IMG/VR virus record: IMGVR_UViG_3300033075_000545
Span: 65,974-129,973 of that record
DNA: 64,000 bases
Reading direction: 5' to 3' (one strand)
Source of the DNA: a virus
Lineage: Duplodnaviria > Caudoviricetes
The position numbers were made by a program, and so were the translations under genes. This document shows, in pieces, positions 39,398-58,968 of this stretch. Numbering within the stretch: the first letter of the stretch is position 1; the number at the start of each line of letters is the position of its first letter. A model generated the notes under the pieces. It had not been told where the DNA came from. It saw only the letters and a program-made list of their open reading frames with translations, and made no database searches.

Positions 39398-39473
39398 GCC
39401 CAATCACTAATACCTGTAATATCAAACCCAGAGCCGAAATAGGTCTGGGTTTGTTCATTTGAGGGGATACGCC

Positions 39474-42400
39474 GTGCCTGCACTATCGCAACCGCCCATG
39501 CGGAAATTTGGTGATTACAAGACGATCCGCAACGCGGTGTTTGATAACGCTTTGGAGTCTGTGAAGGGGCTCAAGCCTGTAGAGAACTCGCGGTACTCCC
39601 TTGCGATCACCGAGCCGCATTACCCCTCACCGGCGGATTACACGACTGAGGATCATACTAAGGCGATGATTGAGGGTCGGTCTCTGTCGCGGCGGATGAT
39701 GGGTACGTACACATTGAAGGACAAAGCGACAGGGAACGTTGTTGACCACAAGACCACGACGATCGCGTCCGTTCCGGTGCTGACACAGCAGGGCACGTTC
39801 ATCATGGACGGGACGGCGATGCCCGTCTCCAGCCAACTACGTTTGCTCCCCGGGGTCTACTCTCGGCGGCGACAGAATAATACACTCGAAAGTCATGTAA
39901 ATTTAACAGGTCGCGGAGTTTCCCACCGGATTCACCTGGATCCGCAAACTGGTGTGTTCAAGATGACCGTGGGTCAGGCCGAGATCCCCGTGGTCAATTT
40001 GCTCCGAGCATTTGGTACGACGGACGACGAGATCAAGTCCGCGTGGGGCAACGACCTGTTCAACGTGAACAGGAAGCACGACAAGCCGCACTACCTCGAC
40101 CGCCTGTACGAGAAGTTCGGCCCCGCGGGAAAGCGCCCGGACGGTGTGGACCTCGCGAAGGTCGTTGCGGAACGCATTTCCAACTACGACATGGATCCCT
40201 GGGTGTCCCAACGGACCCTGGGAAAGCCCCTGGACAAGTACGGGAAGGACGCCGTTCTTAGTGCGACCAGTAGGCTTCTCAAAATCGCCCACGGCGAGAC
40301 TGAGCCCGACGACCGGGACAGCCTCGCGTACGCGACGGTGTGGGGTCCGGAACACCTCATCGCTGAACGATTAACTCGGGTCAATCCGATCCTGTCCAAG
40401 ATGATGTGGCAGGTGACAAATACGGGAAATCTCAAGCGACTTCCTGCTGGGCTTCTCACACAAGCTATTCGTACCGTGTTCACGAAGAGTGGCCTGGCGC
40501 AATGTTTCGATTCCGAGACGAAGGTATTAACCGCACGCGGGTTTGTTTCGTGGCCGGAGGTGACGCCCGAGGATAGTTTTGCGTGTCTTATTGAAGGGAA
40601 GGTCGAATTCCACAATGGTAAATTGCGGGAGTACGACTACGAGGGGGAGATGTACGGGTGTAAGACCAAAAAGTTCAGCTACTTGGTTACACCTGACCAC
40701 CGACTCTACACAGCGCCGTCAGCTAGTGCCAAGCGAGACGTTTTCCGATTCGAGTTTGCCAAAGATGCACATAATTTAGAGCGTCGATTCATCTCCACAA
40801 TCGGGGAGCGCTCAGCTACGCAGATTACGACACGTGTTGGCGACCTGATTCAAATTCCTACGTCGCCCAACTACAAGTACGATGTGGAACAGGCGGAGAT
40901 TTCCGTCAAGGCTGAAGTGTGGGCTGAATTCTTGGGATGGTTTTTGTCCGAAGGTTGCGTAATGACAGCTAAGCGTCGATACCAATATCAAAAGATTACA
41001 ACCAGCCCAGTACGAAGCACAGAAGGCACGCAATTAATTACCGCGATTGCGCAGTCGCCAAAAGCAAATCCTGAGAACTTCGCACAATTAAATCGCCTGT
41101 TGGCGCGCATGCCTTTCCGTTGGCATTTTTTGAAAGGGTGCAATCAGTTTAAGTGTACCCATCGACGACTCGGCGAGTTTTTGGAAGGGTGTGGTAAGTA
41201 TGCAAGGAACAAGCGTATTCCCAGCTACGTTTTCGGTTGGTCCGATGATTTATTAGATATTTTCCTCGACGCGTTCATTGCGGGCGACGGTAACGTTAGC
41301 GGACCGGAAGCGTGTACTAAGATTGAGTTGAGTTCTGAAGGTTTGATTCAGGATGTGGCAATCGTTGCTGGGTACCTGGGGTATGCCCCTAGGATTCGTA
41401 GCATCCCTTCGCGGACAAAGTTCTCGAAAAAGACAGGAAAGACTTACAACTGTCGCCCGACTTGGTCACTGTCTTTGGGTCAGAATCCTTACTCGATGGC
41501 TATGACTAGCAGGCAGTCACTTAAAGTTGGTAGTACACCCGCTTATTACACGCAGACATACTGCGGTAAGGTTTATTGCGCAACTGTACCTGGTGGTTTG
41601 CTGTACGTAATGCGGGACGGTAAGGGTCACTGGTCTGGTAACTCGGCTGAGGGCACAAACGCTGCGGAGTTCATGGACAACGGTGCGCGTATCACCAAGG
41701 TCGGTGAAGGTGGTATTGGACGCTCCGCGGACACCATCCCGGACTCGGCACGTTATGTCAATCCATCACAAATACCATTTATTGATATTGCGAGGATGTC
41801 GGAATGTTTCGATTCCGAGACCGAAGTGATGACCGCGGAAGGTTGGAAGAAATGGTCTGAAGTTACTGATGCGGATCGATTCGCGTGCTTGATTGACGAC
41901 CGGCTGGAGTTTCATCATGCGTCGAAGCTGCACGTCAGCGATTACGACGGTTTGATGTACGGCGTAAAGGGCGAGAACCTAAACTATCTCGTTACGCCCA
42001 ACCACCGCTTTTGGGTACAACGTCTCGGGTGCAAGCCGTGGCAGTTTCTCACAGCGGAACAAGTACACGGATGTAACGTGTCGCACCAATCCGCGGGGCA
42101 CAAGCCGCTGTTGGGCTTCGGTGATAGCTTTGCCGTTCCATTGATCGAAGCGAACGAGGCAGACGTAGCAGAAGACGAATCTGAAAATTCTTCTCGACGC
42201 ACCATGGGTGATCGCCGACTCAAGCAGTCGGAAACGTATCCCATCGCTCCGTTTGCGGAGTTCATGGGTTGGTATCTAGGTGAGGGCAGTACCCGCGTCC
42301 CAAATGCGGCCGGTACCGTAAGCGGGTACACCACGGTTATTACGCAGTCGAAATCAGCAAATCCTGCGAAGTGCGAGAGGATCGAGAAAACCATCGCGGA

Positions 42401-45400
42401 GGTGGGGCTACACGGTAAGTATTACGACAGTGCGCATGGGTTCTTAATTCGGAGTCGACAGCTTACGGAGTACGTGCGTCAGTTTGGGAGGTCGCACGAA
42501 CGGTGGATTCCTGAAGAATTGTTGGCAGCCCCTGTGGAGGCACGACAACGGCTGTTCGATGCGTTACTGCTCGCAGAGGGTACACGCAACGCGGTGCGTT
42601 ACACAAAATTTTCCAGCACCAGCAAAAGAATGGCTCAGGATTTCTGCCGTTTAGCGTTCTCGCTCGGATATTCGACCACCGTCGCTACGTACAAGGACCG
42701 GCGAAAAGACAGCTACCACCTGATGTACCTGGTGACGCTTCACACGCGTACTGTTCGACAGGTGCGTAAGGATTACACGCACAAGAAATCTGACAAGACC
42801 GGGGATTACTACACCCAGGCGTACAAGGGGAAGGTGTATTGCGCTACGGTTCCCGGGGGAAAGCTATACGTTCGACGTCAAGAAGCGTGCGGGTTCTGGT
42901 CGGGTAACAGTGAGACGATCGGAGTTGACCTGCGTACAGCTTTTGGGACGCGATTGGGTCACGACAAGCAGATCTACGCTCCTGTTAAGGACATGACGAC
43001 GAACAAGCTCGTCTATAAGTCCCCCCGCGATCTTGCTGACTCCACGGTGGGGTTCCCGGATGCGCTCCACTCTACTGATGCCGTTGTTCCCGTCATCAAG
43101 GGCGGGAAGCTAACGTACGCTCCGAAGAAGGAGATCAACTATCTCATTCCTAGTATGGAGCAGACGTTTTCACCATTGACGAACATGGTGCCCCTCAAGT
43201 CGTCCTCCAAGGCGCACCGGAGCTCCATGGGTGCGAAGATGTTGGTCCAGTCCTTGGAACTTTCCAACGCGGAAGCCCCGCTTGTAAGGACTGAAGTACC
43301 AGGACAACCAGGGAAGTCGTTTGAGGAGTTGTACGGGAAGCACACTGGTGCCGTGTTCTCCCGTCCAAACGCAGTTGGGCAGGTGAAGGAGGTTACGCCG
43401 TTCGCTGTGAAGATCGGGTACCCGGACGGGACGGAGGACAACCATCAGATCTACCACTATTTACCTAGTGGTCGGAAGAGCGCCACGCACCAGACGCCCC
43501 TCGTTAAGGTGGGCGACATGGTCAACCCGAACCAACTCATTGTGAAGTCCAACAGCGTGGACAAGAACGGCCACCTGGCATATGGGGCTAACGCTCGCGT
43601 GGCCTTTATGACCGCACCAGGTGTTTATGAGGACTCCTTGGCGATCTCGAAGTCATTCGCGAAGAGGCTGACGTCGGAGCACCTGTACCGACACCAACTG
43701 GAAAACGACGACGCCACTCGGTCTGGTAAGTCCGGGTACGTTGCGGCGTTCCCTGGACGACACTCTTTGGATGTATTGAAGACGATTGGGGACGACGGCA
43801 TCGTACAGCCCGGGACCGTGGTGAAGAAGGGCGACCCCCTCATCCTGGCCATCAAGAACAAGCAGTCCCAATACGGGCGTTTGTCTCGGTCTGGGCGATC
43901 AAACGTCGGGGACGCGTCGGAGACGTGGGACTATGACGAGCCCGGGACTGTGGTGGGCGTCCACCAGACAAAGAACGGCCCCGTCGTGCTGGTGAACGCA
44001 CAGAAGGCGGCGAAGGAGGGGGACAAGCTGTGTTACGACCCCCAGACTGAGATCTTTACGGGCAAGGGATGGAAGTCAGTTTCCGATCTGACTCCGACGG
44101 ATCTCGTTTTGTCCCGTAAGGAAGATGGGACGATTGAGTACCTGTATCCCACAGCAATCCACAGCTACGCGCACACCGGGAAGATGTTTCATCTGGAGCA
44201 TCAGGAGATCTCTCTGTGTGTTACACCGAACCACCACTTGTACGTAAAGCGGGATGATGCGTATACGTATGAGCTTATTGAGGCGCAGGACCTCAAGGGT
44301 GGGTACACGCTCCTATCGACAATCCGTACGAATGACGCCCCAGCGATCGTCGAGATCCACGTCGACGAGGAGACACATCAGAAAGCATGGGTAGACTATG
44401 ACGGGCACGTGTACTGCGCGACGCTGCCCCGCAACAACGTCATGTATGCCCGTCGCGGGAACAATATTGCGGTGTGGTGCGGGAACAGCGGGCGCCACGG
44501 TAACAAGGGCGTGACCGTTATCAAGCCCGATGAGGAAATGCCCCACGACGCGCAGGGACGTCCGATCGACATTATTATCTCGTCCCTCGGTACCGTGAGC
44601 CGCGCTAACCCCTCAGCAATCTTCGAAGCATTTCTCGGTAAGATCGCGGAGAAGCGAGGACAGCCCTACGTCGTTCCAGACTTCCAACACGGACAGGACA
44701 ACGCGAAGTTCGTGCAGAAAGAGGGGGAGAAGCATGGTGTGTCGTTTATGGAGGACCTGACTGATCCCCAGACGGGACGGAAGATCCCTCAAGTTGGTGT
44801 GGGCAACATGTACATTATGAAGCTCACGCACATGTCTGAGGGCAAGGTGAAGGGTCGAGGTTTGGGCGGGTACGATGAAACTGGTCAACCGTTACGCGGT
44901 AAGGCCGGTGCGGCAATGCGGAGCTCATTGGGCGACACAAACGCGTTACTGAGTTCCGGGGCTACGAATGTTATTCATGATGCCCACGCGTTCCGAGGTC
45001 AAAGTAACCCGGAGTTTTGGTTGTCGTACATGTCAGGGTACCCAGCTCCGCGACCCAATGTTTCCAAGCCATTCGAGCGGTTCTTGACGGAGCTTCGGGC
45101 AGGAGGTATTGACCCCGTACGTAAGGATTCCCGTTACCACTTGATGGCGCTCACAGACACCAAGATCAACGAACTCGCTGGTGACCGGGTTGTTGAGAAC
45201 GGGGAGACGTTGGATTTCTCTCGCAACGGCGAGCCTTATAAGAAGGGCTTGTTTGATGTTGGTACGTTCGGGTCTGTGGATAACGCCACACAGTGGGCCA
45301 AGGTTCCGCTCCACGAACCCGTACTGAATCCCGTGTTTGATGAGCCCGCCCGTAGACTTCTCGGTCTTACAGAACAGAAGTTCCGGGATACGATTGCAGG

Positions 45401-48044
45401 GAAGCACAAGATCGCAACGGGCACCGGCATGTCTGCGATTGTGGACGCTTTGAAGCAGATGGACGTGTCGACGGAACTGGCGAAGGTCCGAAAACTTTCG
45501 CAGTCTGCACGTAAGACCCAGCGGGATGAGGCCAATCGGACTATCGGGTATCTGAAGACGATGGAGGCGAATAAGACGAGCCCGAAGGATTGGGTAATCT
45601 CGTCGGTTCCTGTTATGCCTCCAGCGTTCCGCCCGGTGTCCCAAGGAGCAAACGGCCTCATCGTCAACGACCAGAACCTTGTGTATAAGGATCTCCTGGA
45701 CGCCAACTCTGTTCTTAAGGATCTATCTAAGGAAGTCAGCGATGTTGGTCAGGAGAGGTTAAACCTGTACGACGCGGTGAAAGCGACGTTTGGCCTTGGT
45801 GCTCCGGTAAACGCCAAGCACCAGGAGAAGCAGGTGAAGGGGGTCCTGGAGCGGCTTCTAGGGTCGACGGCGAAGTATTCGTACGCACAGCAAAAACTCT
45901 TGGGTACGCCGATCGATCTGTCGGGTCGAGGACAGGTTCTGCCGAGTCCGGACCTGAACCTCGACGAAATTGGTATCCCGGAGAAGATGGGGTGGCAGGT
46001 GTTCCACCCGTTTGTTGTGCGTCAGTTGGTCCGCAATGGTATGCCCAGGGTGGAGGCCGCACGTCACGTTGCGGATCAGACGCCTGTTGCACGGCAGGCG
46101 CTGTTGAAGGAGATGGAGCAGCGCCCTGTATTAGCCACACGTTACCCCGCTTTGCACCGGTATAACGTTCAGGCATTTTTTCCGAGATTAGTCAAAGGTG
46201 ACGCACTATTAACTAACAACTTGATCAATCGCTCGTTCAATCTTGACCATGATGGGGATCAACAGCTTGGTAGCGTATTGGTATTGATCCCGGACATGAA
46301 ACTTGATTCAATTCGAGAGCGAACAGCCACGACGGAATTGTACTGGGAGACCAGACGCGTGCCATTCTCGAAAACTGCCTTACCTATACACACCCAGAAC
46401 GGGATCTCTACGTACCTAGTCAACCTGGCAGATTTCCCACATGAATCCCACCTCGGTTCAAAGGTAGGCGAGAAGGGGTTGATCGATTTTTATGCGGTAC
46501 CGAGCGACGTGAAAGTAATTAGCTACGACGAAAGTACCAGCAACGTTGTGATGGCGACTGTCGAGAGCTGGTCCGTTCACCATGATCGCGAAGTGGAGAT
46601 CGTCAACCTTCGATCGGGACGTCAAATTTTTACAGACGACGATCCTCGCGGTGTGTATGGTATCGACCCGGAGACCTACAGTTTCAAACGAGCACGCCCG
46701 GCTGATGGGGTGGGGATGTACGTACCCATCGCGAGCAGGTTGGAATTACTAAACGAAGACGATCGTACGGTTAGTCAATTTTCGCTTCCGGACGACGAAC
46801 GGTTGAATAAGTCGATCATGGCTGATCGAGACATTGGATACTTCTTCGGAACTATGGTCGGTAACGGATGGGTTACGGAGGGGGAGGATCGATACCGAAG
46901 GTTGTATCTCGCCTGCTCTGACGACAACGTGGGAGATGAATTTCGGAAAATTCTTCTAGAGAAGGTGTTCTGCGATCCACCCACAATTGGTCGCTACAAG
47001 ATGACCTCGGAGTACGGCGTTGGTTGGAGGTACGACGTCGCGTCTCCCAAACTGGCGGAATTTGTTGAACCCCTTATCGGAATCGGGGCACGTAACAAAC
47101 ACCTTCCACCGTTCTTTGCATCATGCGGTCGGGCGTTTGCAAAAGGTCTGTTGGAAGGACTAATCGACACGGATGGTACGGTGAGTACGAACGAGGACGG
47201 CGACCGAACTACGGTTTCTTATTCAACTACGTCCGTGCGATTGGCCCAAGAAGTTCAACACTTATGTCGACTGTTAGGTGTGTACGCAACGGTATCGCCG
47301 ACGAAAACTCCAGCCGGTTTGTCCAACTATATAGTCAACATCGTCACGAGGGACTTCGCAGCGTTGAAGTGTAAACTGCTACACAAATTTAAGAGTTCTA
47401 ACTTAGCTCGGACGCAGATTATTCAAAAAGCCGGGCCGAGGTATGCAGCCACGACTTGGGTACCGTATCCAAAACGCCACGGTCATGTGGTTCGAAAGAT
47501 CGTTAAAGCACACGGAGACGCCTTTTATGAAAGGTTCCGTCGCGCCGGTCAGTCCGGTTTGTTGACGCGAGACGTCGCACGTGAGGTGATTGCTGTCGTG
47601 GGGGACCGCGTTACGGCCGACGATTGGGAGCTGTTCAAACAGCTTGCGGCCAATGACAACGTCTCATGGGACGTCGTAGAGAATTATGTGAAAACAGGGA
47701 TTCTTGAAACAGGTTACGACCTTACGGTCCCGGGCTTCGAAACGTTCATGAGTGTCGACGGGGTGATCCTGTCCAACACGATGACGGTGTCCGTACCACT
47801 CTCGGAGGAGGCAGTGAAAGAGGCGTATGAGAAGCTTCTGCCTTCGAAGAATCTGTACTCTCCGGCGTCGTTCAAGGCCACGAATTTCGTTCCGAACATG
47901 GAGTACATCCAGGGACTCCACGCCGTATCCAACGCGGACGAAAAGAATCCGCACGTGACGTTCCGTACAAAGAAGGAAGCCTTCGCTGCGTATAAGCGCG
48001 GCGAGATTAATGCAGGTACTCGAGTCCGGATCGTCGAGGACTAA
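39474..48044 (+). CDS. Phage multisubunit RNA polymerase: beta fused to the N-terminal part of beta', with 4 inteins
   Basis: beta motifs GTFIMDG..SQL, GDKL|SGRHGNKG, YIMKLTH, GQPLRG. beta' motifs GLFD, PVMPPAFRP, LLG..DLSGR, RYPALHR, catalytic NLDHDGD|TMTVSVPLS. SD GAGGGG before GTG 39474. Confidence 0.95.
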   Translation: MPALSQPPMRKFGDYKTIRNAVFDNALESVKGLKPVENSRYSLAITEPHYPSPADYTTEDHTKAMIEGRSLSRRMMGTYTLKDKATGNVVDHKTTTIASVPVLTQQGTFIMDGTAMPVSSQLRLLPGVYSRRRQNNTLESHVNLTGRGVSHRIHLDPQTGVFKMTVGQAEIPVVNLLRAFGTTDDEIKSAWGNDLFNVNRKHDKPHYLDRLYEKFGPAGKRPDGVDLAKVVAERISNYDMDPWVSQRTLGKPLDKYGKDAVLSATSRLLKIAHGETEPDDRDSLAYATVWGPEHLIAERLTRVNPILSKMMWQVTNTGNLKRLPAGLLTQAIRTVFTKSGLAQCFDSETKVLTARGFVSWPEVTPEDSFACLIEGKVEFHNGKLREYDYEGEMYGCKTKKFSYLVTPDHRLYTAPSASAKRDVFRFEFAKDAHNLERRFISTIGERSATQITTRVGDLIQIPTSPNYKYDVEQAEISVKAEVWAEFLGWFLSEGCVMTAKRRYQYQKITTSPVRSTEGTQLITAIAQSPKANPENFAQLNRLLARMPFRWHFLKGCNQFKCTHRRLGEFLEGCGKYARNKRIPSYVFGWSDDLLDIFLDAFIAGDGNVSGPEACTKIELSSEGLIQDVAIVAGYLGYAPRIRSIPSRTKFSKKTGKTYNCRPTWSLSLGQNPYSMAMTSRQSLKVGSTPAYYTQTYCGKVYCATVPGGLLYVMRDGKGHWSGNSAEGTNAAEFMDNGARITKVGEGGIGRSADTIPDSARYVNPSQIPFIDIARMSECFDSETEVMTAEGWKKWSEVTDADRFACLIDDRLEFHHASKLHVSDYDGLMYGVKGENLNYLVTPNHRFWVQRLGCKPWQFLTAEQVHGCNVSHQSAGHKPLLGFGDSFAVPLIEANEADVAEDESENSSRRTMGDRRLKQSETYPIAPFAEFMGWYLGEGSTRVPNAAGTVSGYTTVITQSKSANPAKCERIEKTIAEVGLHGKYYDSAHGFLIRSRQLTEYVRQFGRSHERWIPEELLAAPVEARQRLFDALLLAEGTRNAVRYTKFSSTSKRMAQDFCRLAFSLGYSTTVATYKDRRKDSYHLMYLVTLHTRTVRQVRKDYTHKKSDKTGDYYTQAYKGKVYCATVPGGKLYVRRQEACGFWSGNSETIGVDLRTAFGTRLGHDKQIYAPVKDMTTNKLVYKSPRDLADSTVGFPDALHSTDAVVPVIKGGKLTYAPKKEINYLIPSMEQTFSPLTNMVPLKSSSKAHRSSMGAKMLVQSLELSNAEAPLVRTEVPGQPGKSFEELYGKHTGAVFSRPNAVGQVKEVTPFAVKIGYPDGTEDNHQIYHYLPSGRKSATHQTPLVKVGDMVNPNQLIVKSNSVDKNGHLAYGANARVAFMTAPGVYEDSLAISKSFAKRLTSEHLYRHQLENDDATRSGKSGYVAAFPGRHSLDVLKTIGDDGIVQPGTVVKKGDPLILAIKNKQSQYGRLSRSGRSNVGDASETWDYDEPGTVVGVHQTKNGPVVLVNAQKAAKEGDKLCYDPQTEIFTGKGWKSVSDLTPTDLVLSRKEDGTIEYLYPTAIHSYAHTGKMFHLEHQEISLCVTPNHHLYVKRDDAYTYELIEAQDLKGGYTLLSTIRTNDAPAIVEIHVDEETHQKAWVDYDGHVYCATLPRNNVMYARRGNNIAVWCGNSGRHGNKGVTVIKPDEEMPHDAQGRPIDIIISSLGTVSRANPSAIFEAFLGKIAEKRGQPYVVPDFQHGQDNAKFVQKEGEKHGVSFMEDLTDPQTGRKIPQVGVGNMYIMKLTHMSEGKVKGRGLGGYDETGQPLRGKAGAAMRSSLGDTNALLSSGATNVIHDAHAFRGQSNPEFWLSYMSGYPAPRPNVSKPFERFLTELRAGGIDPVRKDSRYHLMALTDTKINELAGDRVVENGETLDFSRNGEPYKKGLFDVGTFGSVDNATQWAKVPLHEPVLNPVFDEPARRLLGLTEQKFRDTIAGKHKIATGTGMSAIVDALKQMDVSTELAKVRKLSQSARKTQRDEANRTIGYLKTMEANKTSPKDWVISSVPVMPPAFRPVSQGANGLIVNDQNLVYKDLLDANSVLKDLSKEVSDVGQERLNLYDAVKATFGLGAPVNAKHQEKQVKGVLERLLGSTAKYSYAQQKLLGTPIDLSGRGQVLPSPDLNLDEIGIPEKMGWQVFHPFVVRQLVRNGMPRVEAARHVADQTPVARQALLKEMEQRPVLATRYPALHRYNVQAFFPRLVKGDALLTNNLINRSFNLDHDGDQQLGSVLVLIPDMKLDSIRERTATTELYWETRRVPFSKTALPIHTQNGISTYLVNLADFPHESHLGSKVGEKGLIDFYAVPSDVKVISYDESTSNVVMATVESWSVHHDREVEIVNLRSGRQIFTDDDPRGVYGIDPETYSFKRARPADGVGMYVPIASRLELLNEDDRTVSQFSLPDDERLNKSIMADRDIGYFFGTMVGNGWVTEGEDRYRRLYLACSDDNVGDEFRKILLEKVFCDPPTIGRYKMTSEYGVGWRYDVASPKLAEFVEPLIGIGARNKHLPPFFASCGRAFAKGLLEGLIDTDGTVSTNEDGDRTTVSYSTTSVRLAQEVQHLCRLLGVYATVSPTKTPAGLSNYIVNIVTRDFAALKCKLLHKFKSSNLARTQIIQKAGPRYAATTWVPYPKRHGHVVRKIVKAHGDAFYERFRRAGQSGLLTRDVAREVIAVVGDRVTADDWELFKQLAANDNVSWDVVENYVKTGILETGYDLTVPGFETFMSVDGVILSNTMTVSVPLSEEAVKEAYEKLLPSKNLYSPASFKATNFVPNMEYIQGLHAVSNADEKNPHVTFRTKKEAFAAYKRGEINAGTRVRIVED
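40503..41642 (+). mobile_element. RNAP intein 1 (380 aa, LAGLIDADG)
   Basis: CFDSETKV..VTPDH..FLGWFLSEG..FIAGDG..KVYCATVP..WSGN|S. Confidence 0.93.
41805..42908 (+). mobile_element. RNAP intein 2 (368 aa, LAGLIDADG)
   Basis: CFDSETEV..VTPNH..MGWYLGEG..KVYCATVP..WSGN|S. Confidence 0.93.
44031..44486 (+). mobile_element. RNAP mini-intein 3 (152 aa) in GDKL|SGRHGNKG
   Basis: CYDPQTEI..VTPNH..HVYCATLP..WCGN|S. Confidence 0.93.
46260..47777 (+). mobile_element. RNAP intein 4 (506 aa, LAGLIDADG), atypical: Gln1 and no block-B His
   Basis: DHDGD|QQLGSVLVLI...GLLEGLIDTDG...TGYDLTVPGFETF..GVILSN|TMTV. Confidence 0.85.
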
Positions 48045-54240: not shown

Positions 54241-57200
54241 ATGCGGGAAGCGACTCTCGGACGCTTGTTGTTGGAAGATGCGGTCCCGCCCGCTCTCCAC
54301 GGACATCTTTCGAATCTCAACGCGAAGAATATCCGCGTTCTATTCCAAAGACTCGCTGACGAGCATCCAGATAAATACAAGGATATCTCCCACCGACTTT
54401 CGCAGATCGCGTCCAAGGGCGGGTACGAGTCAGGTGGGTACTCGTTTGGACCGCAGCACCTCCAGGCCGATCCTGAAACGGAACAAATCCGACAGCAATT
54501 CCGTCAGGAAGTAACGAAAGCTCTCAACGACAATAGCCTCTCGCCGAAGATGCGAGAGGCTACCCTCGTTCGTATTGCTGCGGAGTATTCGAACACCCTC
54601 CAGGACTCTGTTGTTCGGAATGGTCTGGCGCATAAGAACCCTATTGCTCTTCAAGTTGAGAGTGGAGCCAAGGGCAAGGCCGAGAATCTCAAGGCGCTTA
54701 TTGCCGGCGATACGTTGTATACAGACAGTTACTACAACCCCGTCCCATATCCCGTGGTGCACTCGTTCGCGGAAGGACTACGTCCTCACGAATTTGTCGC
54801 AGGCAGCTACGGTGCCCGGTTGGCTATGATTTTGACGAAGTTAGGTACTGCCAAGGGCGGATGGTTGTGTTTGGATGCAGCCACCGAGGTTCGAATGGCG
54901 GATGGATCCGTCAAAGCGATCAAGGACGTTCGACAAGGGGACCGTGTTTGCGGCGTGTCCCGCGCCGGCGATGTGCGGCCGGTTACTGTCCTTGCCCACA
55001 TTGCAACGGGGAACAAAGAGGTCTTTCGGTACCGATTTCGCCCCGGACGATCTCGGACCGAGTTAATCCACGTCGACGCCACCCGAGACCACAAGGTGCT
55101 TTTGAAACACAAGACTTATTTGCGAGTTAACACGGAAACAGGTGCTGAACAGCAGATCCAATCATCGGTGGATATTCGACCGCTGAGTTACTTAGACTAC
55201 CGACCGGGAAATCATCATTACAGTTTGACTGCGACAAACACGTTCGACGATTCTGGTTTTCAACACGAGCCTCGCGCGTTGTTGATGGGCTTGTTGCTGG
55301 GTGACGGGTGTTTGACGTACCCTACAAAAATAACTTGGGCGTGCGCGGAGGCGGACTACGTTGAGGAAAGGCGACAATACCTGCAGCAATTTGGGTTACG
55401 CGCTGATTTACACCAGGGTCCAGGTACGCGTATTGAGTACACGCTCAATAGCACAGATAATTCGGCCAAACGTCACTCACGAGACTCCGTCAAGTTTCGC
55501 GAGTGGCTCGACACGTTCGGGTTACTTGGACATAAAGCGAAGACGAAATTTATCCCTAAAGAAGTGTGGCGGTGGGACAACGCATCTTTGGCTCAATTGA
55601 TTACAGGACTTTTTGTTACTGACGGCTCGTTCTCGATCTCCAAGCAAACATCGAGACCTGTTGTTAAATTTGCCGTAACGTCGCAAGCGATGGTTGCGAC
55701 TCTTCGTGAACTGTTGGCTGTAAGATTCGGTATTCATTCAAGTCCAAGCTGGGCAATGAGTGAGGAATCCCTGGAGCGATTTAACGCGACTTCGAAATCG
55801 CGCGGTGAGCGTTTGGGTGCGTGTCCTAAACTTTCTGGGCGGACACATGTGATTCATCGAAATCCGCTTCACGCTATTATCATCAGCAACCGCGAACACC
55901 TACGACGGTTTGCTGAACTGGTAAAAGACTCCAAACACCCTCGCGCTGTTAAATACGCGACCGCGGTTGCGTCGATGACAGACTCCAATGACGATTTGGA
56001 GTACGGTTACACGTACGTGGATGTTGAACCGTTAGGTATTCGAGAGACGTTTGATATCGAGGTAGATCACCCCGATCACCTTTTCTTGTTGGCGAACGGG
56101 GCAGTCGTATCGAACTCGAAACGTTTGAATGGACTTGCTCACCGCTTGGTTGTGACTGCTCCTGACGCTAAAGAACACGACGCTTCAATTGTTCGAGGAT
56201 TTGAAACGTCCGTGGATGATCCGGACAACGATGGCGCTTTGCTGGCCCATCCGGTGGGCGGGTATCCACGAAATACGGTGCTTGATCGTCACGTGATCGG
56301 TGATCTGAAGAAGCAGGGGATCCAAGACATTTTGATTCGGAGCCCTCTCGTCGGAGGACCAATCAACGGGGGTGTTTACGGGCGCGATGTAGGGATCCGT
56401 GAAAGGGGTAAGGTTGCGCCAGTTGGTGATTTTGTGGGCTTGGCTGCTGCTCAAGCAGCATGTTTGGCGGAAGGGACGATGGTGGCAATGGCGGACGGGA
56501 CATCAAAAGCAATCGAGAGTGTCATACCCGGTGATATGATTTTAGGTGCATCGCGAACGGGCGAGGTGCGTCCTGTGCGTGTGTTAAATAGGTTCGATAA
56601 CGGACCAAAGGAAGTCTACGAAACCGTATTTCGGAACGGTACAGGAAGATCGAAAGCCGAAAACATGCTTAAGTTACGCTCGACTTTGGATCATAAAATT
56701 TTAAGTGTGCTGGTGAAGCGGTCGAATATGACACAAGGGAATCGCCGTCCTGCGGCTGAGGTGCAACCTGTCCGCCGACCCGAAGGGTATAGTAGGTTCT
56801 ATGCGAAACTGCCGACTGGCTTTGATGACACAGGGACTGAGGATGAGCCGTACGCATTGGCTCTGGGGTTATTAATCGGCGACGGTTGTTATACAGGGGG
56901 CGTAACTTCCAACGGAATCGCTTTTTCGTGTCATGACCGCAAACTCATCATGGACGTTGAAACGTACCTTCGCGACATCTGCGGATGTTATTTGTGTCCG
57001 CAATCGACTGTTGGAGAGTATCGCGTCTCCAGTGTGCACGGTGCGGCCCCAGTAAATGGCGGACGGGTGACGGACGTACGTAACCCGATGCGTAAAAAGC
57101 TATTGGACTATGCGCTTTGGGGGCAACGGTCGCATACTAAAACGCTGCCGAATACCGCTAAATGGAGCAATAAATCCGTCGCCGCGCTGATCTCCGGATT

Positions 57201-58968
57201 AATCGCTACAGATGGTTATGTGTCGTTCGATCCAAATCGAGGTGCGGTTGTAGGATTTGGTTCTACGTCAGAATCGCTCGTACGCGAGCTACGTCGGTTA
57301 CTTGCAGTGCGTTTTGGTATTTATGCATCGGGTGTGTCTGCTAACTACAAGAAAAGGAAAGATGGGGCGACGTATCGTCCAATATTTAACATGGCGGTTG
57401 GCGGGTATGTCAATGTGATGCGGTTACATCAGATTTTGAATATCCCTGGTGTAAAACAAGAGCGCCTCCGGAAAGCTTGCGAATCATGGGAAATAACCAA
57501 CAAGGCATCTGAATCGGGACGTTGTTCATTCGTGTCCCAAACTTATTTGGGAAAGATTTCCACTTACGATTTAGAAGTGGATCATCCGGATCATCTATTT
57601 GTTCTCGAGAATATGTTAGTGGTACACAATTCGGAACCGCTGACGCAGATGCTCATCTGTCTACGTGAAGGGACTGAGGTCAGGATGGCGGATGGTACCG
57701 TTAAGCGGATTGAGTATATTCAGCCTGGCGAGCTTGTGATGGGTTCAGACATCAATGGGTATACGTCACCGGTTAAGGTTCTCAACCGATTAGATCAAGG
57801 TACTCAGAAGGTTTACCGCACTGCTTATGCTGTGGGGAGCGATCTCTTACACGTAGATGCGACGTTGGATCATAAGATCCTGTCGCAGGTTCTCACATCC
57901 CGCGTCGATTTTGTGAATCAGGTACAACCCGTGCGGGACCAATGGGACGTTGTGATTGTCCGCGATAGGGACGTCGTATCTGCGGAGTATGCAGGTCAAT
58001 CGTTCCTCGGAGCCTATCGGACATACGATCTCAGTGTCGACAGCGAGTCACACCTTTTCGTCCTTGCCAACGGAATGGTCGTGTCGAACTCCAGCAAACA
58101 CTCCGGGGGTGTGGCCGGTGCGACTGGTGGACAACAGGGCTTTCCCGTAATCGATAGAATGTTTTCCATCCCGAGTGAGTTTCCGGGTGGTGCGACTCAC
58201 GCGCAAAAGGACGGTGTGGTAGGGAGCATTACTGCAGCACCGCAAGGCGGGTTCTACATCGACGTTGGCGATGAGCGGCATTACACTCCTCCAGATCAGA
58301 AGATTACGGTCAAGCCTGGGGATTCAATTGAGGCCGGAGACTCACTTACTGATGGTCTGTTGAATCCTGCGGAGTACGTACCTACCAAAGGTATTGGGGA
58401 GGGTCGGCGACTGTTTGTTAAGTCGTTCATGGACGTCGCTCGGAAATCAAACTTTATCCCCAACCGGCGGAACATTGAGCTTTTAGCGCGTGGGTATATC
58501 GACACAGTGAAGTTTGATCAAGAACACGGCCACTACGCGCCAGGGGATACAGCGTCATATACGACGTTGGAGAACCAGTATGAGCCTCGTGACGGACACG
58601 AGACTCACGCTCCGGAGAAAGCCGTGGGTCGGTATCTGGAGCGTCCTATTCTGCATTACACGGTCGGTACAAGGGTTACTAAGGCGATGCTTCCGACATT
58701 GCAGAAATGGGGCGTCGGAGCTGTAACGACGCATGCAGAATCTCCACCGTTTTCACCAGTTATGGTTCGTAGTCAGGACATCCTTGCTAACGATTCGGAT
58801 TGGATGACACGGATGCTGGGTTCGGGATTGGAGAAGAGTCTTTTGAAGGGGGTCCACCGCGGAGCAGTCTCGGATCCTAGTGGAACCTCGTACGTTCCGG
58901 CTCTAGCCGAGGGTACGAATTTTGGTTCGAAGGGTTTGACTGTTGGTTGGAAACCCGAGAAGGGGTAA
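54241..58968 (+). CDS. RNA polymerase beta' C-terminal part, with 3 inteins
   Basis: TLGRLLL, SGAKG, SFAEGL, GAR, bridge helix TAKGGWL|SKRL, trigger loop VGLAAAQAA|SEPLTQMLI|SSKHSGG, QGFP, RRNIELLAR. Confidence 0.93.
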   Translation: MREATLGRLLLEDAVPPALHGHLSNLNAKNIRVLFQRLADEHPDKYKDISHRLSQIASKGGYESGGYSFGPQHLQADPETEQIRQQFRQEVTKALNDNSLSPKMREATLVRIAAEYSNTLQDSVVRNGLAHKNPIALQVESGAKGKAENLKALIAGDTLYTDSYYNPVPYPVVHSFAEGLRPHEFVAGSYGARLAMILTKLGTAKGGWLCLDAATEVRMADGSVKAIKDVRQGDRVCGVSRAGDVRPVTVLAHIATGNKEVFRYRFRPGRSRTELIHVDATRDHKVLLKHKTYLRVNTETGAEQQIQSSVDIRPLSYLDYRPGNHHYSLTATNTFDDSGFQHEPRALLMGLLLGDGCLTYPTKITWACAEADYVEERRQYLQQFGLRADLHQGPGTRIEYTLNSTDNSAKRHSRDSVKFREWLDTFGLLGHKAKTKFIPKEVWRWDNASLAQLITGLFVTDGSFSISKQTSRPVVKFAVTSQAMVATLRELLAVRFGIHSSPSWAMSEESLERFNATSKSRGERLGACPKLSGRTHVIHRNPLHAIIISNREHLRRFAELVKDSKHPRAVKYATAVASMTDSNDDLEYGYTYVDVEPLGIRETFDIEVDHPDHLFLLANGAVVSNSKRLNGLAHRLVVTAPDAKEHDASIVRGFETSVDDPDNDGALLAHPVGGYPRNTVLDRHVIGDLKKQGIQDILIRSPLVGGPINGGVYGRDVGIRERGKVAPVGDFVGLAAAQAACLAEGTMVAMADGTSKAIESVIPGDMILGASRTGEVRPVRVLNRFDNGPKEVYETVFRNGTGRSKAENMLKLRSTLDHKILSVLVKRSNMTQGNRRPAAEVQPVRRPEGYSRFYAKLPTGFDDTGTEDEPYALALGLLIGDGCYTGGVTSNGIAFSCHDRKLIMDVETYLRDICGCYLCPQSTVGEYRVSSVHGAAPVNGGRVTDVRNPMRKKLLDYALWGQRSHTKTLPNTAKWSNKSVAALISGLIATDGYVSFDPNRGAVVGFGSTSESLVRELRRLLAVRFGIYASGVSANYKKRKDGATYRPIFNMAVGGYVNVMRLHQILNIPGVKQERLRKACESWEITNKASESGRCSFVSQTYLGKISTYDLEVDHPDHLFVLENMLVVHNSEPLTQMLICLREGTEVRMADGTVKRIEYIQPGELVMGSDINGYTSPVKVLNRLDQGTQKVYRTAYAVGSDLLHVDATLDHKILSQVLTSRVDFVNQVQPVRDQWDVVIVRDRDVVSAEYAGQSFLGAYRTYDLSVDSESHLFVLANGMVVSNSSKHSGGVAGATGGQQGFPVIDRMFSIPSEFPGGATHAQKDGVVGSITAAPQGGFYIDVGDERHYTPPDQKITVKPGDSIEAGDSLTDGLLNPAEYVPTKGIGEGRRLFVKSFMDVARKSNFIPNRRNIELLARGYIDTVKFDQEHGHYAPGDTASYTTLENQYEPRDGHETHAPEKAVGRYLERPILHYTVGTRVTKAMLPTLQKWGVGAVTTHAESPPFSPVMVRSQDILANDSDWMTRMLGSGLEKSLLKGVHRGAVSDPSGTSYVPALAEGTNFGSKGLTVGWKPEKG
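54868..56115 (+). mobile_element. beta'C intein A (416 aa, LAGLIDADG) in the bridge helix
   Basis: CLDAATEV..ATRDH..GLLLGDG..GLFVTDG..TFDIEV..VVSN|S. Confidence 0.93.
56461..57630 (+). mobile_element. beta'C intein B (390 aa, LAGLIDADG)
   Basis: CLAEGTMV..STLDH..GLLIGDG..GLIATDG..TYDLEV..VVHN|S. Confidence 0.93.
57658..58089 (+). mobile_element. beta'C mini-intein C (144 aa)
   Basis: CLREGTEV..ATLDH..TYDLSV..VVSN|S. Confidence 0.93.

What the first reader, a model, noticed from the sequence alone, without database searches (positions are those of the whole stretch)
46260..47777. Gln-initiated intein lacking the block-B His, inserted right after the RNAP catalytic aspartates
Seen: NLDHDGD is followed by QQLGSVLVLI... 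instead of Cys/Ser. The block-B region reads GRQIFTDDDPRG (no TxxH). Block F has Asp (GYDLTV), not the class-3 Cys. The C-terminus SN|T is normal, and LAGLIDADG motifs are present. Removal gives DGD-TMTVSVPLS, matching the canonical DGD-QMAVHVPLS. Established: class 1 inteins need Cys/Ser1, class 3 inteins use a block-F Cys, and class 2 (KlbA) inteins begin with Ala and retain the block-B His. Inference: either a non-canonical splicing chemistry, a cleavage-only element that splits beta' at the active site, or a dead intein that inactivates the enzyme.
Basis: partly seen in the sequence, partly recalled or inferred. Interest (0 to 1): 0.75.

Follow-up and report, generated by a model that had tools for sequence, protein, structure and literature searches.

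The report
Nucleophile-less intein in phage RNA polymerase
A mobile self-removing protein insert (intein) sits right after the magnesium-binding DGD loop of a large phage's RNA polymerase; it is an intact member of a big, conserved and apparently undescribed family that has given up the first-residue nucleophile and the usual catalytic histidines, so it must come out by a splicing route nobody has tested.

Summary
Window 46260-47777 encodes a 506-aa HINT + LAGLIDADG intein, Gln1 ... Ser-Asn|Thr+1, directly after NLDHDGD in a 2861-aa fused RNAP beta-beta'N gene of an uncultured jumbo phage.

It is not a private degeneration. More than 250 clusters (at 50% identity) carry the same insert at DGD|T. 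In 110 main-clade members:
- Residue 1 is almost free (Q44, E17, D11, A9, L7 ...; only 4 Cys/Ser) and changes state at least 52 times on the intein tree.
- Thr+1 is 110/110. Intein-less alleles have Ala/Thr/Gln there.

Loss of the residue-1 nucleophile co-varies with block B T-D-D-D-P-R, Glu at F:13 and Ser-Asn at the C-terminus. A small sister clade keeps Cys/Ser/Thr1, a [ST]xxH block B and a C-terminal Asp.

Class 1 and class 3 features are not met. The family shares the class 2 hallmark (non-nucleophilic residue 1 + Ser G:6) but has Thr+1 and no block-B His.

Best reading: a working intein that splices by direct Thr+1 attack or a new variant. Naturally split forms with 13-54-aa N-fragments exist.

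This scan had already met the family in other genomes. I found no paper describing it.

The parts
39459..48044 (+). Host gene: 2861-aa fused RNA polymerase beta + N-terminal half of beta'. It carries three ordinary Cys1 inteins in the beta part plus the intein studied here.
   Evidence: ORF list and translation. Pfam Rpb2_6 at 1.2e-42, plus Rpb1_1 and Rpb1_2. It is the only DGD-bearing frame in the 130-kb contig.
46239..46259 (+). N-extein end: NLDHDGD, the Mg-binding catalytic loop. Asp-1 is the third catalytic aspartate.
   Evidence: The motif aligns with DxDGD of all homologs.
46260..47777 (+). The intein: 506 aa, from Gln1 to Asn506.
   Evidence: Boundaries are fixed by the intein-less alleles P0096, P0098 and P0233.
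46260..46295 (+). Block A region QQLGSVLVLIPD. Residue 1 is non-nucleophilic. Residues 5-11 form strand beta1, modelled at pLDDT about 93.
   Evidence: Residue 1 is variable across the family, residue 2 is Gln in 66/110, and residues 6-10 are hydrophobic.
46296..46403 (+). Poorly conserved helical loop (residues 13-48) between strand beta1 and the xLxDFPH strand. This is where relatives are naturally split into two genes.
   Evidence: No column reaches 60% conservation except M34. pLDDT is lower here, 67-83. Split points are shown.
46569..46580 (+). W104-S105-V-H107. His107 is 87/88 conserved and aligns with the motif-NX histidine of cysteine-less oxyester inteins.
   Evidence: Motif NX is described in PMC10189870.
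46617..46661 (+). Block B, GRQIFTDDDPRGVYG. T125-D126-D127-D128-P129-R130 replaces [ST]xxH. Arg130 lies where the sister clade has His.
   Evidence: D126 79/79, D128 79/79, R130 79/79 in the main clade. Aligns with 'ITSG-HSLF' of PI-PkoII.
46827..47630 (+). LAGLIDADG homing-endonuclease domain (about residues 190-457). Motif 1 is GYFFGTMVGNGW (46836-46871) and motif 2 is GLLEGLIDTDG (47145-47177).
   Evidence: Pfam PF14528 at 1.3e-11 and PF05204. Motifs are conserved family-wide. Foldseek hits I-DmoI and PI-SceI. In this copy the acidic residue of motif 1 is Asn202, as in 19/88 relatives.
47712..47750 (+). Block F, GYDLTVPGFETFM. Asp487 (F:4) is invariant. Glu494 lies where class 1 inteins have His F:13.
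   Evidence: Aligns to the Ssp DnaB intein 1mi8 'FDLTVPGPHNFVA'.
47757..47777 (+). Block G, DGVILSN. The penultimate residue is Ser505 (79/79 in the main clade) and the C-terminal residue is Asn506.
47778..48044 (+). C-extein, starting at Thr+1 (47778-47780): TMTVSVPLSEEAVK... up to the stop codon.
   Evidence: Thr+1 is 110/110 in the main clade.
54241..58968 (+). Context: a separate 1575-aa gene for the C-terminal half of beta' (Rpb1 domain 5), itself carrying further inteins.
   Evidence: Pfam LAGLIDADG_3, Hom_end_hint and Hint, plus a weak Rpb1_5 match.

Best explanation
This is a working, mobile LAGLIDADG intein. It belongs to a large phage family that always sits between the third catalytic Asp of the RNA polymerase DxDGD loop and a Thr.

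The family's main clade descends from Ser1/Cys1 hydroxyl-type ('oxyester') class 1 inteins but no longer uses residue 1 as a nucleophile. The Gln1 seen here is just one of at least 15 residues tolerated at that position.

Inferred mechanism:
1. The hydroxyl of Thr+1 attacks the Asp(-1)-Gln1 peptide bond directly, as Cys+1 does in class 2 (KlbA) inteins. This gives the block-G branched ester.
2. Asn506 then cyclises.
3. An O-to-N shift restores ...HDGD-TMTV....

Activation of the amide and of the weak Thr nucleophile is proposed to come from two groups of residues. The first is retained from the ancestor: the motif-NX-like His107 and Asp487 (F:4). The second arose together with the loss of the residue-1 nucleophile: Asp126-Asp127-Asp128-Pro-Arg130 in block B, Glu494 at F:13 and Ser505 at G:6.

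Shown here: the anatomy, family-wide conservation and covariation, mobility, and the dependence of Thr+1 on intein presence. Inferred: that splicing happens, and by which route.
For: Real intein:
- Pfam, AF2 (pLDDT 86.8) and Foldseek hits to TliVMA, PI-PfuI and PI-PkoII.
- Block F/G and block B align to solved inteins.

Large conserved family at one site:
- 254 clusters at 50% identity with E<1e-30, and about 100 clusters at 90% identity.

Residue 1 is not catalytic:
- Among 110 main-clade members it is Q44, E17, D11, A9, L7, G4, Y3, K3, C3, F2, H2, M2, R, S, N.
- It changes state at least 52 times on the intein tree. The four Cys/Ser cases are scattered among Gln, Ala and Asp neighbours.

One evolutionary switch:
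- The 7-member sister clade all have C/S/T at residue 1, an S-E-D-H type block B and a C-terminal [W/Y/Q]-Asp.
- The main clade has invariant D126, D128, R130, E494, S505 and N506.
- One main-clade member changed E494Q and S505H together.

Thr+1 is needed by the intein, not by the polymerase:
- It is T in 110/110 intein alleles. The 75 intein-less alleles have A37, T16, Q11, S4 and others (Fisher p 7e-34).
- On the extein tree there are 25 phylogenetically independent intein+/intein- pairs. About 17 go the same way and about 0 the other way, median p 1.5e-5.

Removal is required:
- Five phage genomes that are at least 94% complete each have a single DGD-bearing frame, and that frame carries this intein.
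- Intein presence changes at least 42 times on the extein tree, and the nearest relatives P0233 and P0096 lack it. This fits an active mobile element.

Class 2 resemblance:
- The review PMC4031507 states that all class 2 inteins combine a non-nucleophilic residue 1 with Ser at G:6 and need Asp F:4. All three are present here.

His107:
- It aligns with the motif-NX His. In solved oxyester inteins that His lies at the N-terminal scissile bond, 3.3 A from the F:4 Asp (PMC10189870).

This copy keeps every main-clade invariant residue.
Against: - No experiment shows processing of any member.
- Direct attack on an amide by a Thr hydroxyl has no precedent. Class 2 inteins use Cys+1 and need His B:10, which is absent here.
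- I could not obtain model coordinates, so no distance between Thr+1, Ser505, Thr125, Ser105 or His107 and the scissile bond was measured.
- Co-conversion of flanking sequence during homing could contribute to the Thr+1 association. However, positions +2 to +4 vary freely.
- In this copy the first LAGLIDADG motif has Asn instead of the catalytic Asp, so its endonuclease may be weak.
Confidence: 0.5

Rival explanations
1. Class-3-like route with a hydroxyl branch point. An internal Ser or Thr of the intein first attacks the N-terminal amide, and the N-extein is then passed to Thr+1. Candidates are Thr/Ser125 in block B, Ser505 at G:6, or Ser105 next to His107. This would be a new mechanistic class.
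For: - Thr/Ser125 carries a hydroxyl in 79/79 main-clade members, and Ser505 is 79/79 and specific to the main clade.
- Ser105 and His107 lie two residues apart on one strand. His107 is the motif-NX-like His, which in solved inteins faces the scissile bond and the F:4 Asp. This would make a Ser-His-Asp arrangement thinkable.
- Class 3 shows that an internal nucleophile can replace residue 1.
Against: - Ser105 and His107 are equally conserved in the Ser1/Cys1 sister clade, so they are not tied to the loss of residue 1.
- There is no conserved Cys anywhere in the splicing domain.
- Ser G:6 also occurs in class 2 inteins, where it is not a nucleophile.
- No distances were measured.
Confidence: 0.2
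2. Other chemistry at the N-junction that exploits the acidic environment. One option is that Asp(-1) of the extein cyclises to a succinic anhydride, which is then opened by Thr+1 or by the freed C-extein amine. Another is that a metal ion, held by the DDD/Glu494/Asp487 cluster and the extein DxDGD, polarises the amide.
For: - The -1 residue is Asp in nearly all alleles, with six acidic intein residues conserved around the site: D126, D127, D128, E483, D487 and E494.
- The sister clade ends in Asp, which presumably cleaves by side-chain cyclisation to an anhydride, the analogue of Asn succinimide formation. The family therefore already uses side-chain cyclisation chemistry.
- From my own knowledge, not checked here: Asp at -1 is known to promote N-terminal cleavage in engineered inteins.
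Against: - Asp(-1) is fixed by polymerase function anyway, so its conservation says nothing about the intein.
- Anhydride opening could give an iso-Asp link in the catalytic loop.
- No such intein mechanism has been reported. This is purely inferential.
Confidence: 0.1
3. Cleavage-only element. Both junctions are cut without ligation, and the polymerase works with a nick right after DGD, like other naturally split RNAP subunits.
For: - This phage group already tolerates unusual partitions of the polymerase: a beta-beta'N fusion plus a separate beta'C gene.
- It also tolerates genes physically split at this very site.
Against: - C-terminal cleavage by Asn cyclisation needs no +1 nucleophile, yet Thr+1 is invariant only where the intein is present.
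- N-terminal cleavage of an amide would still need unexplained chemistry.
Confidence: 0.1
4. Unprocessed or dead insert: a decayed intein that stays in the protein, leaving the polymerase inactive or tolerant of the insertion.
For: The textbook catalytic residues Cys/Ser1, His B:10, His F:13 and His G:6 are all missing.
Against: - Splicing blocks are strongly conserved in more than 100 lineages that are only 30-45% identical overall.
- ORFs of 2000-3000 aa are intact.
- There is one catalytic gene per complete genome.
- The site lies in the buried catalytic loop.
- Intein-less alleles exist among close relatives.
- A decayed element would not keep Asn506, Thr+1, Asp487 and His107 invariant.
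Confidence: 0.05

Closest known systems
Class 2 inteins (Methanocaldococcus jannaschii KlbA and its orthologues; Southworth 2000, Johnson 2007, as reviewed in PMC4031507)
   Same: Non-nucleophilic residue 1, Ser at G:6 (penultimate), Asn at G:7, Asp at F:4 and Thr at B:7. They cannot form the linear (thio)ester, so the +1 residue is the obvious first nucleophile.
   Different: Here +1 is Thr, not Cys. His B:10, which class 2 requires, is replaced (TDDDPR). F:13 is Glu. Residue 1 is free to vary rather than being Ala. The host is a phage RNAP, not KlbA, and the family arose independently from Ser1/Cys1 relatives at the same site. The mechanism is untested.
Cysteine-less class 1 'oxyester' inteins with the motif-NX histidine (PolB16 OarG, PI-TkoII/PI-PkoII 2cw7, Mja TFIIB 5o9i, Psp Pol-1; Pasch et al. 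2023, PMC10189870)
   Same: Hydroxyl-only chemistry (Thr+1, no conserved Cys). A conserved His about 20 residues upstream of block B aligns with the NX His. These are the best sequence and fold matches among solved inteins. In PolB16 the block-B His is dispensable. PolB16 is also atypically split, with a 15-aa N-fragment, as some relatives are here.
   Different: Those inteins all have Ser1 and use it, and all keep the block-B His in sequence. The residue before the NX His is Arg/Lys in them but only about one third Arg/Lys here. The main clade here lacks Ser1 altogether.
Class 3 inteins (mycobacteriophage Bethlehem DnaB; Tori et al. 2010, PMC2807308)
   Same: Phage origin, non-nucleophilic residue 1 and Thr/Ser at +1. 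They were recognised by covariation of the missing N-terminal nucleophile with other positions, which is the same logic used here.
   Different: The defining Trp B:12 / Cys F:4 / Thr G:5 triplet is absent. Here these positions are Arg130, Asp487 and Leu504. There is no conserved Cys at all.
Tko CDC21-1 intein (lacks His B:10 and is compensated by Lys58; cited in PMC4031507)
   Same: A functional intein without the block-B His. A basic residue elsewhere activates the N-junction. Here the invariant Arg130 could play that part.
   Different: Tko CDC21-1 keeps the residue-1 nucleophile and is a single case. Here the loss is family-wide and is combined with loss of residue 1, His F:13 and His G:6.
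Sister clade at the same DGD|T site: Ser1/Cys1/Thr1 inteins ending in Trp/Tyr/Gln-Asp (P0090, P0091, P0093, P0242, P0244, P0298, P0311)
   Same: Same insertion site, same LAGLIDADG domain, same F59-P60, S105-x-H107, D487, T495-F496, G501 and Thr+1.
   Different: They keep a residue-1 nucleophile and an [ST]xxH block B. They end in Asp rather than Ser-Asn and have an aromatic residue instead of Glu at F:13. They read as ordinary, if Asp-ending, class 1 inteins.

Membership tests
Intein (HINT splicing domain with inserted LAGLIDADG endonuclease) | HINT fold with blocks A, B, F and G around an endonuclease domain | tested here: met
   AF2 model with pLDDT 86.8. Foldseek hits TliVMA, PI-PfuI, PI-PkoII and PI-SceI at E 5e-20 to 1e-8. 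Profile alignment to PI-PkoII block B and to Ssp DnaB block F/G. Pfam Intein_splicing matches only partially and below its cut-off.
Intein (HINT splicing domain with inserted LAGLIDADG endonuclease) | In-frame insertion at a conserved host site, with intein-less alleles that define exact boundaries | tested here: met
   P0096, P0098 and P0233 read DGD|T(A)MT... 75 intein-less alleles were parsed.
Intein (HINT splicing domain with inserted LAGLIDADG endonuclease) | C-terminal Asn (or Asp/Gln) followed by Cys/Ser/Thr at +1 | tested here: met
   Asn506|Thr+1 in the window. SN|T in 110/110 main-clade members.
Intein (HINT splicing domain with inserted LAGLIDADG endonuclease) | Demonstrated protein splicing | not testable with these tools
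   There is no experimental or proteomic data. The family is known only from metagenomes, with no hit in 50,697 GenBank phage records.
Class 1 inteins | Cys/Ser/Thr at residue 1 | tested here: not met
   Gln1 in the window. 106/110 main-clade members have a non-nucleophilic residue.
Class 1 inteins | Block B Thr-x-x-His | tested here: not met
   T125-D-D-D128-P-R130. The His is replaced in 79/79 main-clade members.
Class 2 (KlbA-type) inteins | Non-nucleophilic residue 1 together with Ser G:6 and Asn G:7 | tested here: met
   Gln1, Ser505 and Asn506. The hallmark is as stated in PMC4031507.
Class 2 (KlbA-type) inteins | Cys at +1 as the attacking nucleophile | tested here: not met
   Thr+1 in 110/110 members.
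Class 2 (KlbA-type) inteins | Thr B:7, His B:10 and Asp F:4 required | tested here: not met
   Thr125 and Asp487 are present, but His B:10 is absent.
Class 2 (KlbA-type) inteins | Orthology to the KlbA intein (all known members) | tested here: not met
   The host protein is a phage RNAP beta'. The nearest relatives are Ser1/Cys1 inteins at the same site.
Class 3 inteins | Trp B:12, Cys F:4 and Thr G:5 (WCT triplet) | tested here: not met
   Arg130, Asp487 (88/88) and Leu504. The definition is from PMC2807308.
Cysteine-less oxyester class 1 inteins with motif NX | Conserved His upstream of block B (motif NX) | tested here: met
   His107 is 87/88 conserved and aligns with the His of PI-PkoII and the TFIIB intein. 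The preceding residue is Arg/Lys in only about 33%.
Cysteine-less oxyester class 1 inteins with motif NX | Ser1 nucleophile and conserved block-B His | tested here: not met
   Both are absent in the main clade. Both are present in the sister clade.
LAGLIDADG homing endonuclease | Two LAGLIDADG motifs, each ending in an acidic residue | tested here: inconclusive
   Both motifs are present (PF14528 at 1.3e-11). Motif 2 has Asp305. Motif 1 has Asn202 in this copy, where 65/88 relatives have Asp and 19/88 have Asn.
Bacterial intein-like (BIL) domains | No +1 nucleophile, located in non-conserved regions, and cleavage dominates | tested here: not met
   Thr+1 is invariant and the insertion lies in the most conserved motif of the host protein.

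The most novel reading that the evidence does not exclude
The main clade is a fourth mechanistic class of inteins. It would be all-hydroxyl protein splicing with no residue-1 nucleophile and none of the three catalytic histidines. The N-terminal amide would be broken either through an internal Ser/Thr branch point or through carboxylate, Arg or metal-assisted chemistry (block B Asp-Asp-Asp-Pro-Arg, Glu F:13, extein Asp-1), rather than by the class 2 route.
Probability: 0.3. Interest if true: 0.92.

Novelty: new variant of a known kind. Interest (0 to 1): 0.8.

Why it matters
Mechanism:
- Inteins are textbook single-turnover enzymes, and only three mechanistic classes have been recognised since 2010. 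Per PMC4031507, class 2 and class 3 each arose once.
- This is a second, independent and much more diverse lineage that dispenses with the residue-1 nucleophile. It does so with Thr, not Cys, at +1 and without the block-B histidine.
- A sister clade keeps the ancestral state. The residues that changed together are therefore pinpointed, which makes the question of how an intein can activate an amide without a first (thio)ester directly testable by a handful of mutants.

Practical use:
- An intein that needs only a Thr at +1 and accepts almost any residue at position 1 would be attractive for redox-independent protein ligation and semisynthesis.
- The same applies to its natural split versions, whose N-fragments are only 13-24 aa.

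Biology:
- The only RNA polymerase catalytic subunit of a whole group of uncultured jumbo phages depends on this reaction.

Tried and rejected
Explanations rejected:
- Sequencing error or private degeneration. The same features occur in more than 100 independent sequences.
- Shifted N-terminal boundary, with the intein starting at a nearby Ser/Cys. Positions 2-5 hold no conserved nucleophile, and the intein-less alleles fix the junction at DGD|T.
- Group I or II intron instead of an intein. There is no Rfam match, the frame is open, and a HINT fold is present.
- Class 3. The WCT triplet is absent.
- His107 as a 'relocated' block-B His specific to this family. It is shared with the Ser1/Cys1 sister clade and with PI-PkoII and the TFIIB intein, so it is the known motif-NX His.

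Searches and tools that led nowhere:
- DNA (blastn) and protein (tblastn) searches of 50,697 GenBank phage records found nothing.
Split forms were studied through the search for related loci and the genome search instead.
- Model coordinates are not exposed to the script box, so no active-site distances could be measured. The second structure job was therefore not used.
- Literature searches for a description of RNAP DGD-site inteins or a fourth intein class found none. The paper that defined these RNAP-encoding Caudovirales (PMC7481178) does not mention inteins.

Full report
**1. What is there**

The window is the last 64 kb of a 129,973-bp IMG/VR viral contig, estimated 65% complete, so a jumbo phage of about 200 kb. 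ORF 39459-48044 (+) encodes a 2861-aa protein in which RNA polymerase beta runs directly into the N-terminal half of beta' (Pfam Rpb2_6, Rpb1_1, Rpb1_2). The C-terminal half of beta' is a separate gene at 54241-58968.

The beta part carries three ordinary inteins (Cys1 ... Gly-Asn|Ser). The fourth insert is the finding. Translation and the DNA at both ends give NLDHDGD | Q1-QLGSVLVLIPD ... G120-RQIFTDDDPRGVYG ... G485-YDLTVPGFETFMSVDGVILS-N506 | T+1-MTVSVPLSEEAVK, at 46260-47777 exactly as reported.

- An AlphaFold2 model built on 42 homologs is confident (pLDDT 86.8, pTM 0.88).
- Its best structural matches are homing-endonuclease inteins: TliVMA 5e-20, PI-PfuI and PI-PkoII.
- No RNA family matches the region.
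- Close intein-less alleles of the same polymerase read DGD|TMTISIPL, DGD|TFTVSLPL and DGD|AMTISIPL (P0096, P0098, P0233). This fixes the boundaries.

**2. It is a family, not an accident**

A search with the C-terminal 662 residues of the protein found about 100 clusters (90% identity) of fused phage polymerases with the same insert. An exhaustive HMMER search found 254 clusters (50% identity) at E<1e-30. IMG/VR scans gave about 40 loci.

In an alignment of 88 inserts the splicing blocks are strongly conserved:
- F59-P60-H61
- W104-S105-x-H107 (His in 87/88)
- T125-D-D-D128-P-R130
- D487 (88/88)
- P-G-x-E494-T-F-M
- G501
- L-S505-N506 | T507

Both LAGLIDADG motifs are conserved too. The window's copy keeps every one of these residues. 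The one exception is Asn202 in place of the acidic residue of LAGLIDADG motif 1, a state shared by 19/88 relatives.

**3. Residue 1 is unconstrained, and its loss co-varies with other changes**

After a second, extein-based search I parsed 110 main-clade inteins (450-700 aa, ending Ser-Asn).
- Residue 1 is Q44, E17, D11, A9, L7, G4, Y3, K3, C3, F2, H2, M2, R1, S1, N1.
- On a tree of the inteins, built without residues 1-2 and the last two, residue 1 changes state at least 52 times. The four Cys/Ser cases are scattered among Gln, Ala and Asp neighbours.
- A 7-member sister clade has Cys, Ser or Thr at residue 1 in every member and ends in Trp/Tyr/Gln-Asp.

Column-by-column comparison of the two clades:
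- Main-clade-specific invariants: D126, D127, R130, Y133, G134, R144, E483, E494, S505, N506.
- Sister clade: block B reads S-E-D-H, a normal [ST]xxH, with His where the main clade has Arg130, and an aromatic residue where the main clade has Glu494.
- Shared by both clades: S105, H107, D487, T495, F496, G501 and Thr+1.
- One main-clade member (P0073) has changed Glu494 to Gln and Ser505 to His together.

So one evolutionary switch replaced {residue-1 nucleophile, block-B His, C-terminal Asp} by {any residue 1, Asp-Asp-Asp-Pro-Arg, Glu F:13, Ser-Asn}.

**4. Evidence that the element has to be, and is, removed**

(a) The site is the buried Mg-binding loop.

(b) Five phage genomes that are at least 94% complete each contain a single DGD-bearing frame, and it carries this intein.

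(c) Intein presence changes at least 42 times on a tree of 183 N-exteins (shuffled mean 58). The closest relatives of the window's polymerase lack it. This is the pattern of an active mobile element.

(d) Thr+1 is present in 110/110 intein alleles. The same position in 75 intein-less alleles is A37, T16, Q11, S4, M2, K2, L, C, V (Fisher p 7e-34).
- With phylogenetically independent pairs (25 pairs on supported branches), Thr goes with the intein in about 17, against it in about 0, and is unchanged in about 8. The median p is 1.5e-5.
- Positions +2 to +4 vary freely among intein alleles, so this is not just co-conversion.
- A +1 nucleophile is needed for splicing but not for Asn-driven C-terminal cleavage. 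This argues for real splicing.

**5. Comparison with known classes**

- Class 1 requires a residue-1 nucleophile and normally His B:10. Both are absent.
- Class 3 is defined by Trp B:12, Cys F:4 and Thr G:5 (PMC2807308). Here these positions are Arg130, Asp487 and Leu504, and no Cys is conserved anywhere.
- Class 2, per the review PMC4031507: all members are KlbA orthologues with Ala1, Ser at G:6 and Cys+1. They need Thr B:7, His B:10 and Asp F:4, and Cys+1 attacks the N-terminal amide directly.
  - The present family shares the non-nucleophilic residue 1, Ser G:6 (which appears exactly when residue 1 is lost), Asn G:7, Asp F:4 and a block-B Thr.
  - It differs in Thr+1, no His B:10, Glu F:13, a different host protein and an independent origin.
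- His107: in a profile search of PDB sequences it aligns with the His in 'IRHD' of PI-PkoII and 'SRHP' of the TFIIB intein.
  - This is the motif-NX histidine that Pasch et al. 2023 (PMC10189870) found to be specific for cysteine-less Ser1/Thr+1 inteins.
  - In those structures it lies at the N-terminal scissile bond, 3.3 A from the F:4 Asp. In PolB16 it matters more than the block-B His.
  - Here the residue before it is Arg/Lys in only about a third of members.

The family therefore descends from the hydroxyl-chemistry branch of class 1 and has converged on the class 2 sequence hallmark.

**6. Most likely mechanism (inferred)**

Thr+1 attacks the Asp(-1)-Gln1 amide directly, giving the block-G branched ester. 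Asn506 then cyclises, and an O-to-N shift restores HDGD-TMTV.

Proposed roles:
- His107 and Asp487 activate the nucleophile or the scissile bond.
- Arg130 and the Asp triad replace His B:10 in polarising or straining the amide.
- Glu494 and Ser505 replace His F:13 and His G:6.

I put about 0.5 on this route and about 0.8 on the broader statement that the element is a functional intein that splices without a residue-1 nucleophile.

Rivals:
- An internal hydroxyl branch point at Thr/Ser125, Ser505 or Ser105 (0.2).
- Asp(-1)-anhydride or metal-assisted chemistry (0.1).
- Cleavage only (0.1).
- Dead insert (0.05).

**7. Split relatives**

Several relatives are naturally split in the poorly conserved loop after strand beta1.
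- In contig IMGVR_UViG_3300045988_182353 the polymerase ORF ends ...DFDGD|CQWGHVFLLIKS-stop. About 5 kb downstream, a 323-aa ORF encodes an endonuclease-free C-half (...FTDDDPRAIYG...GYDLTVPGYETF...VVLSN|TMNVHVP).
- In L041, L042 and L048 the N-gene ends 24, 54 and 21 residues after DGD, with residue 1 = Phe, Gln and Leu. In L041 and L042 the C-half gene starts at its own ATG behind a Shine-Dalgarno sequence (AAGGAG / AGGAG); in L048 the C-half also starts at its own ATG, but no such sequence is evident upstream.
- P0301 has Ser1 in an N-fragment otherwise nearly identical to that of L041 (Phe1).
- Many cluster representatives start with Met just before the xLxDFPH strand.

Here the catalytic loop can only be completed by trans-acting intein halves, again with or without a residue-1 nucleophile.

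**8. Novelty**

Literature searches found no description of inteins at the RNAP DGD site, nor of a nucleophile-less family other than classes 2 and 3. GenBank phage records contain no member.

The scan's own index shows that the same family has already been noted and followed up in several other genomes, with concordant conclusions. My analysis was done independently before those look-ups. The exception is the pointer to the motif-NX paper, which I then read and checked against my own alignment.

I file it as a new variant of a known kind: an intein with an undescribed active-site make-up, and possibly a new mechanistic class.

Noticed in passing
L029 ORF 1..1725 and L018 ORF 2953..3924 (same contig, about 5 kb apart); L041, L042, L048, L021: Naturally split versions of this intein exist. 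The N-fragments are 12-54 aa after DGD, with residue 1 = Cys, Phe, Gln or Leu. The C-halves have their own ATG start, preceded in L041 and L042 by a Shine-Dalgarno sequence. Some C-halves lack the endonuclease, while others keep it, which is unusual for split inteins.
   Followed up: partly
Proteins P0180, P0192, P0195, P0210, P0212, P0085, P0087; locus L043: A subclade with about 630-aa inteins of this family has D-x-N-G-D instead of D-x-D-G-D. The middle catalytic aspartate of the polymerase is encoded as Asn. This is unexplained for an enzyme thought to need all three aspartates.
   Followed up: no
Proteins P0242, P0244, P0095, P0288: Sister-clade alleles read D-x-D-G-N|Cys1 ... [W/Y]-Asp|Thr. 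The -1 residue, which is the third catalytic Asp, is encoded as Asn while the intein ends in Asp. This mirrors the main clade's Asp(-1) ... Asn arrangement.
   Followed up: no
Proteins P0097, P0102, P0235, P0245, P0247, P0268: A second, unrelated intein family with Ser1 (S-x-x-T-x-L...G-x-x-F-L-G-x-F-E) occupies the same DGD site in other alleles, mostly together with D-x-N-G-D. The site is therefore a hot spot for independent intein invasions.
   Followed up: no
window 46836-46871: In this copy the first LAGLIDADG motif ends G-N-G-W (Asn202) where most relatives have G-D-G-W. The homing endonuclease of this copy may be weakened or a nickase. 19 of 88 relatives share the Asn.
   Followed up: partly
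window 39459-46238 and 54241-58968: The same polymerase carries three canonical Cys1...Gly-Asn|Ser inteins in the beta part and further Hint/LAGLIDADG inserts in the separate beta'C gene. Roughly half of the coding length of the two genes is intein.
   Followed up: partly
window 46263-46265 and the family alignment: Residue 2 of the intein is more conserved (Gln in 66/110) than residue 1. Class 1 inteins usually have a hydrophobic residue there. It may contact the scissile bond.
   Followed up: no
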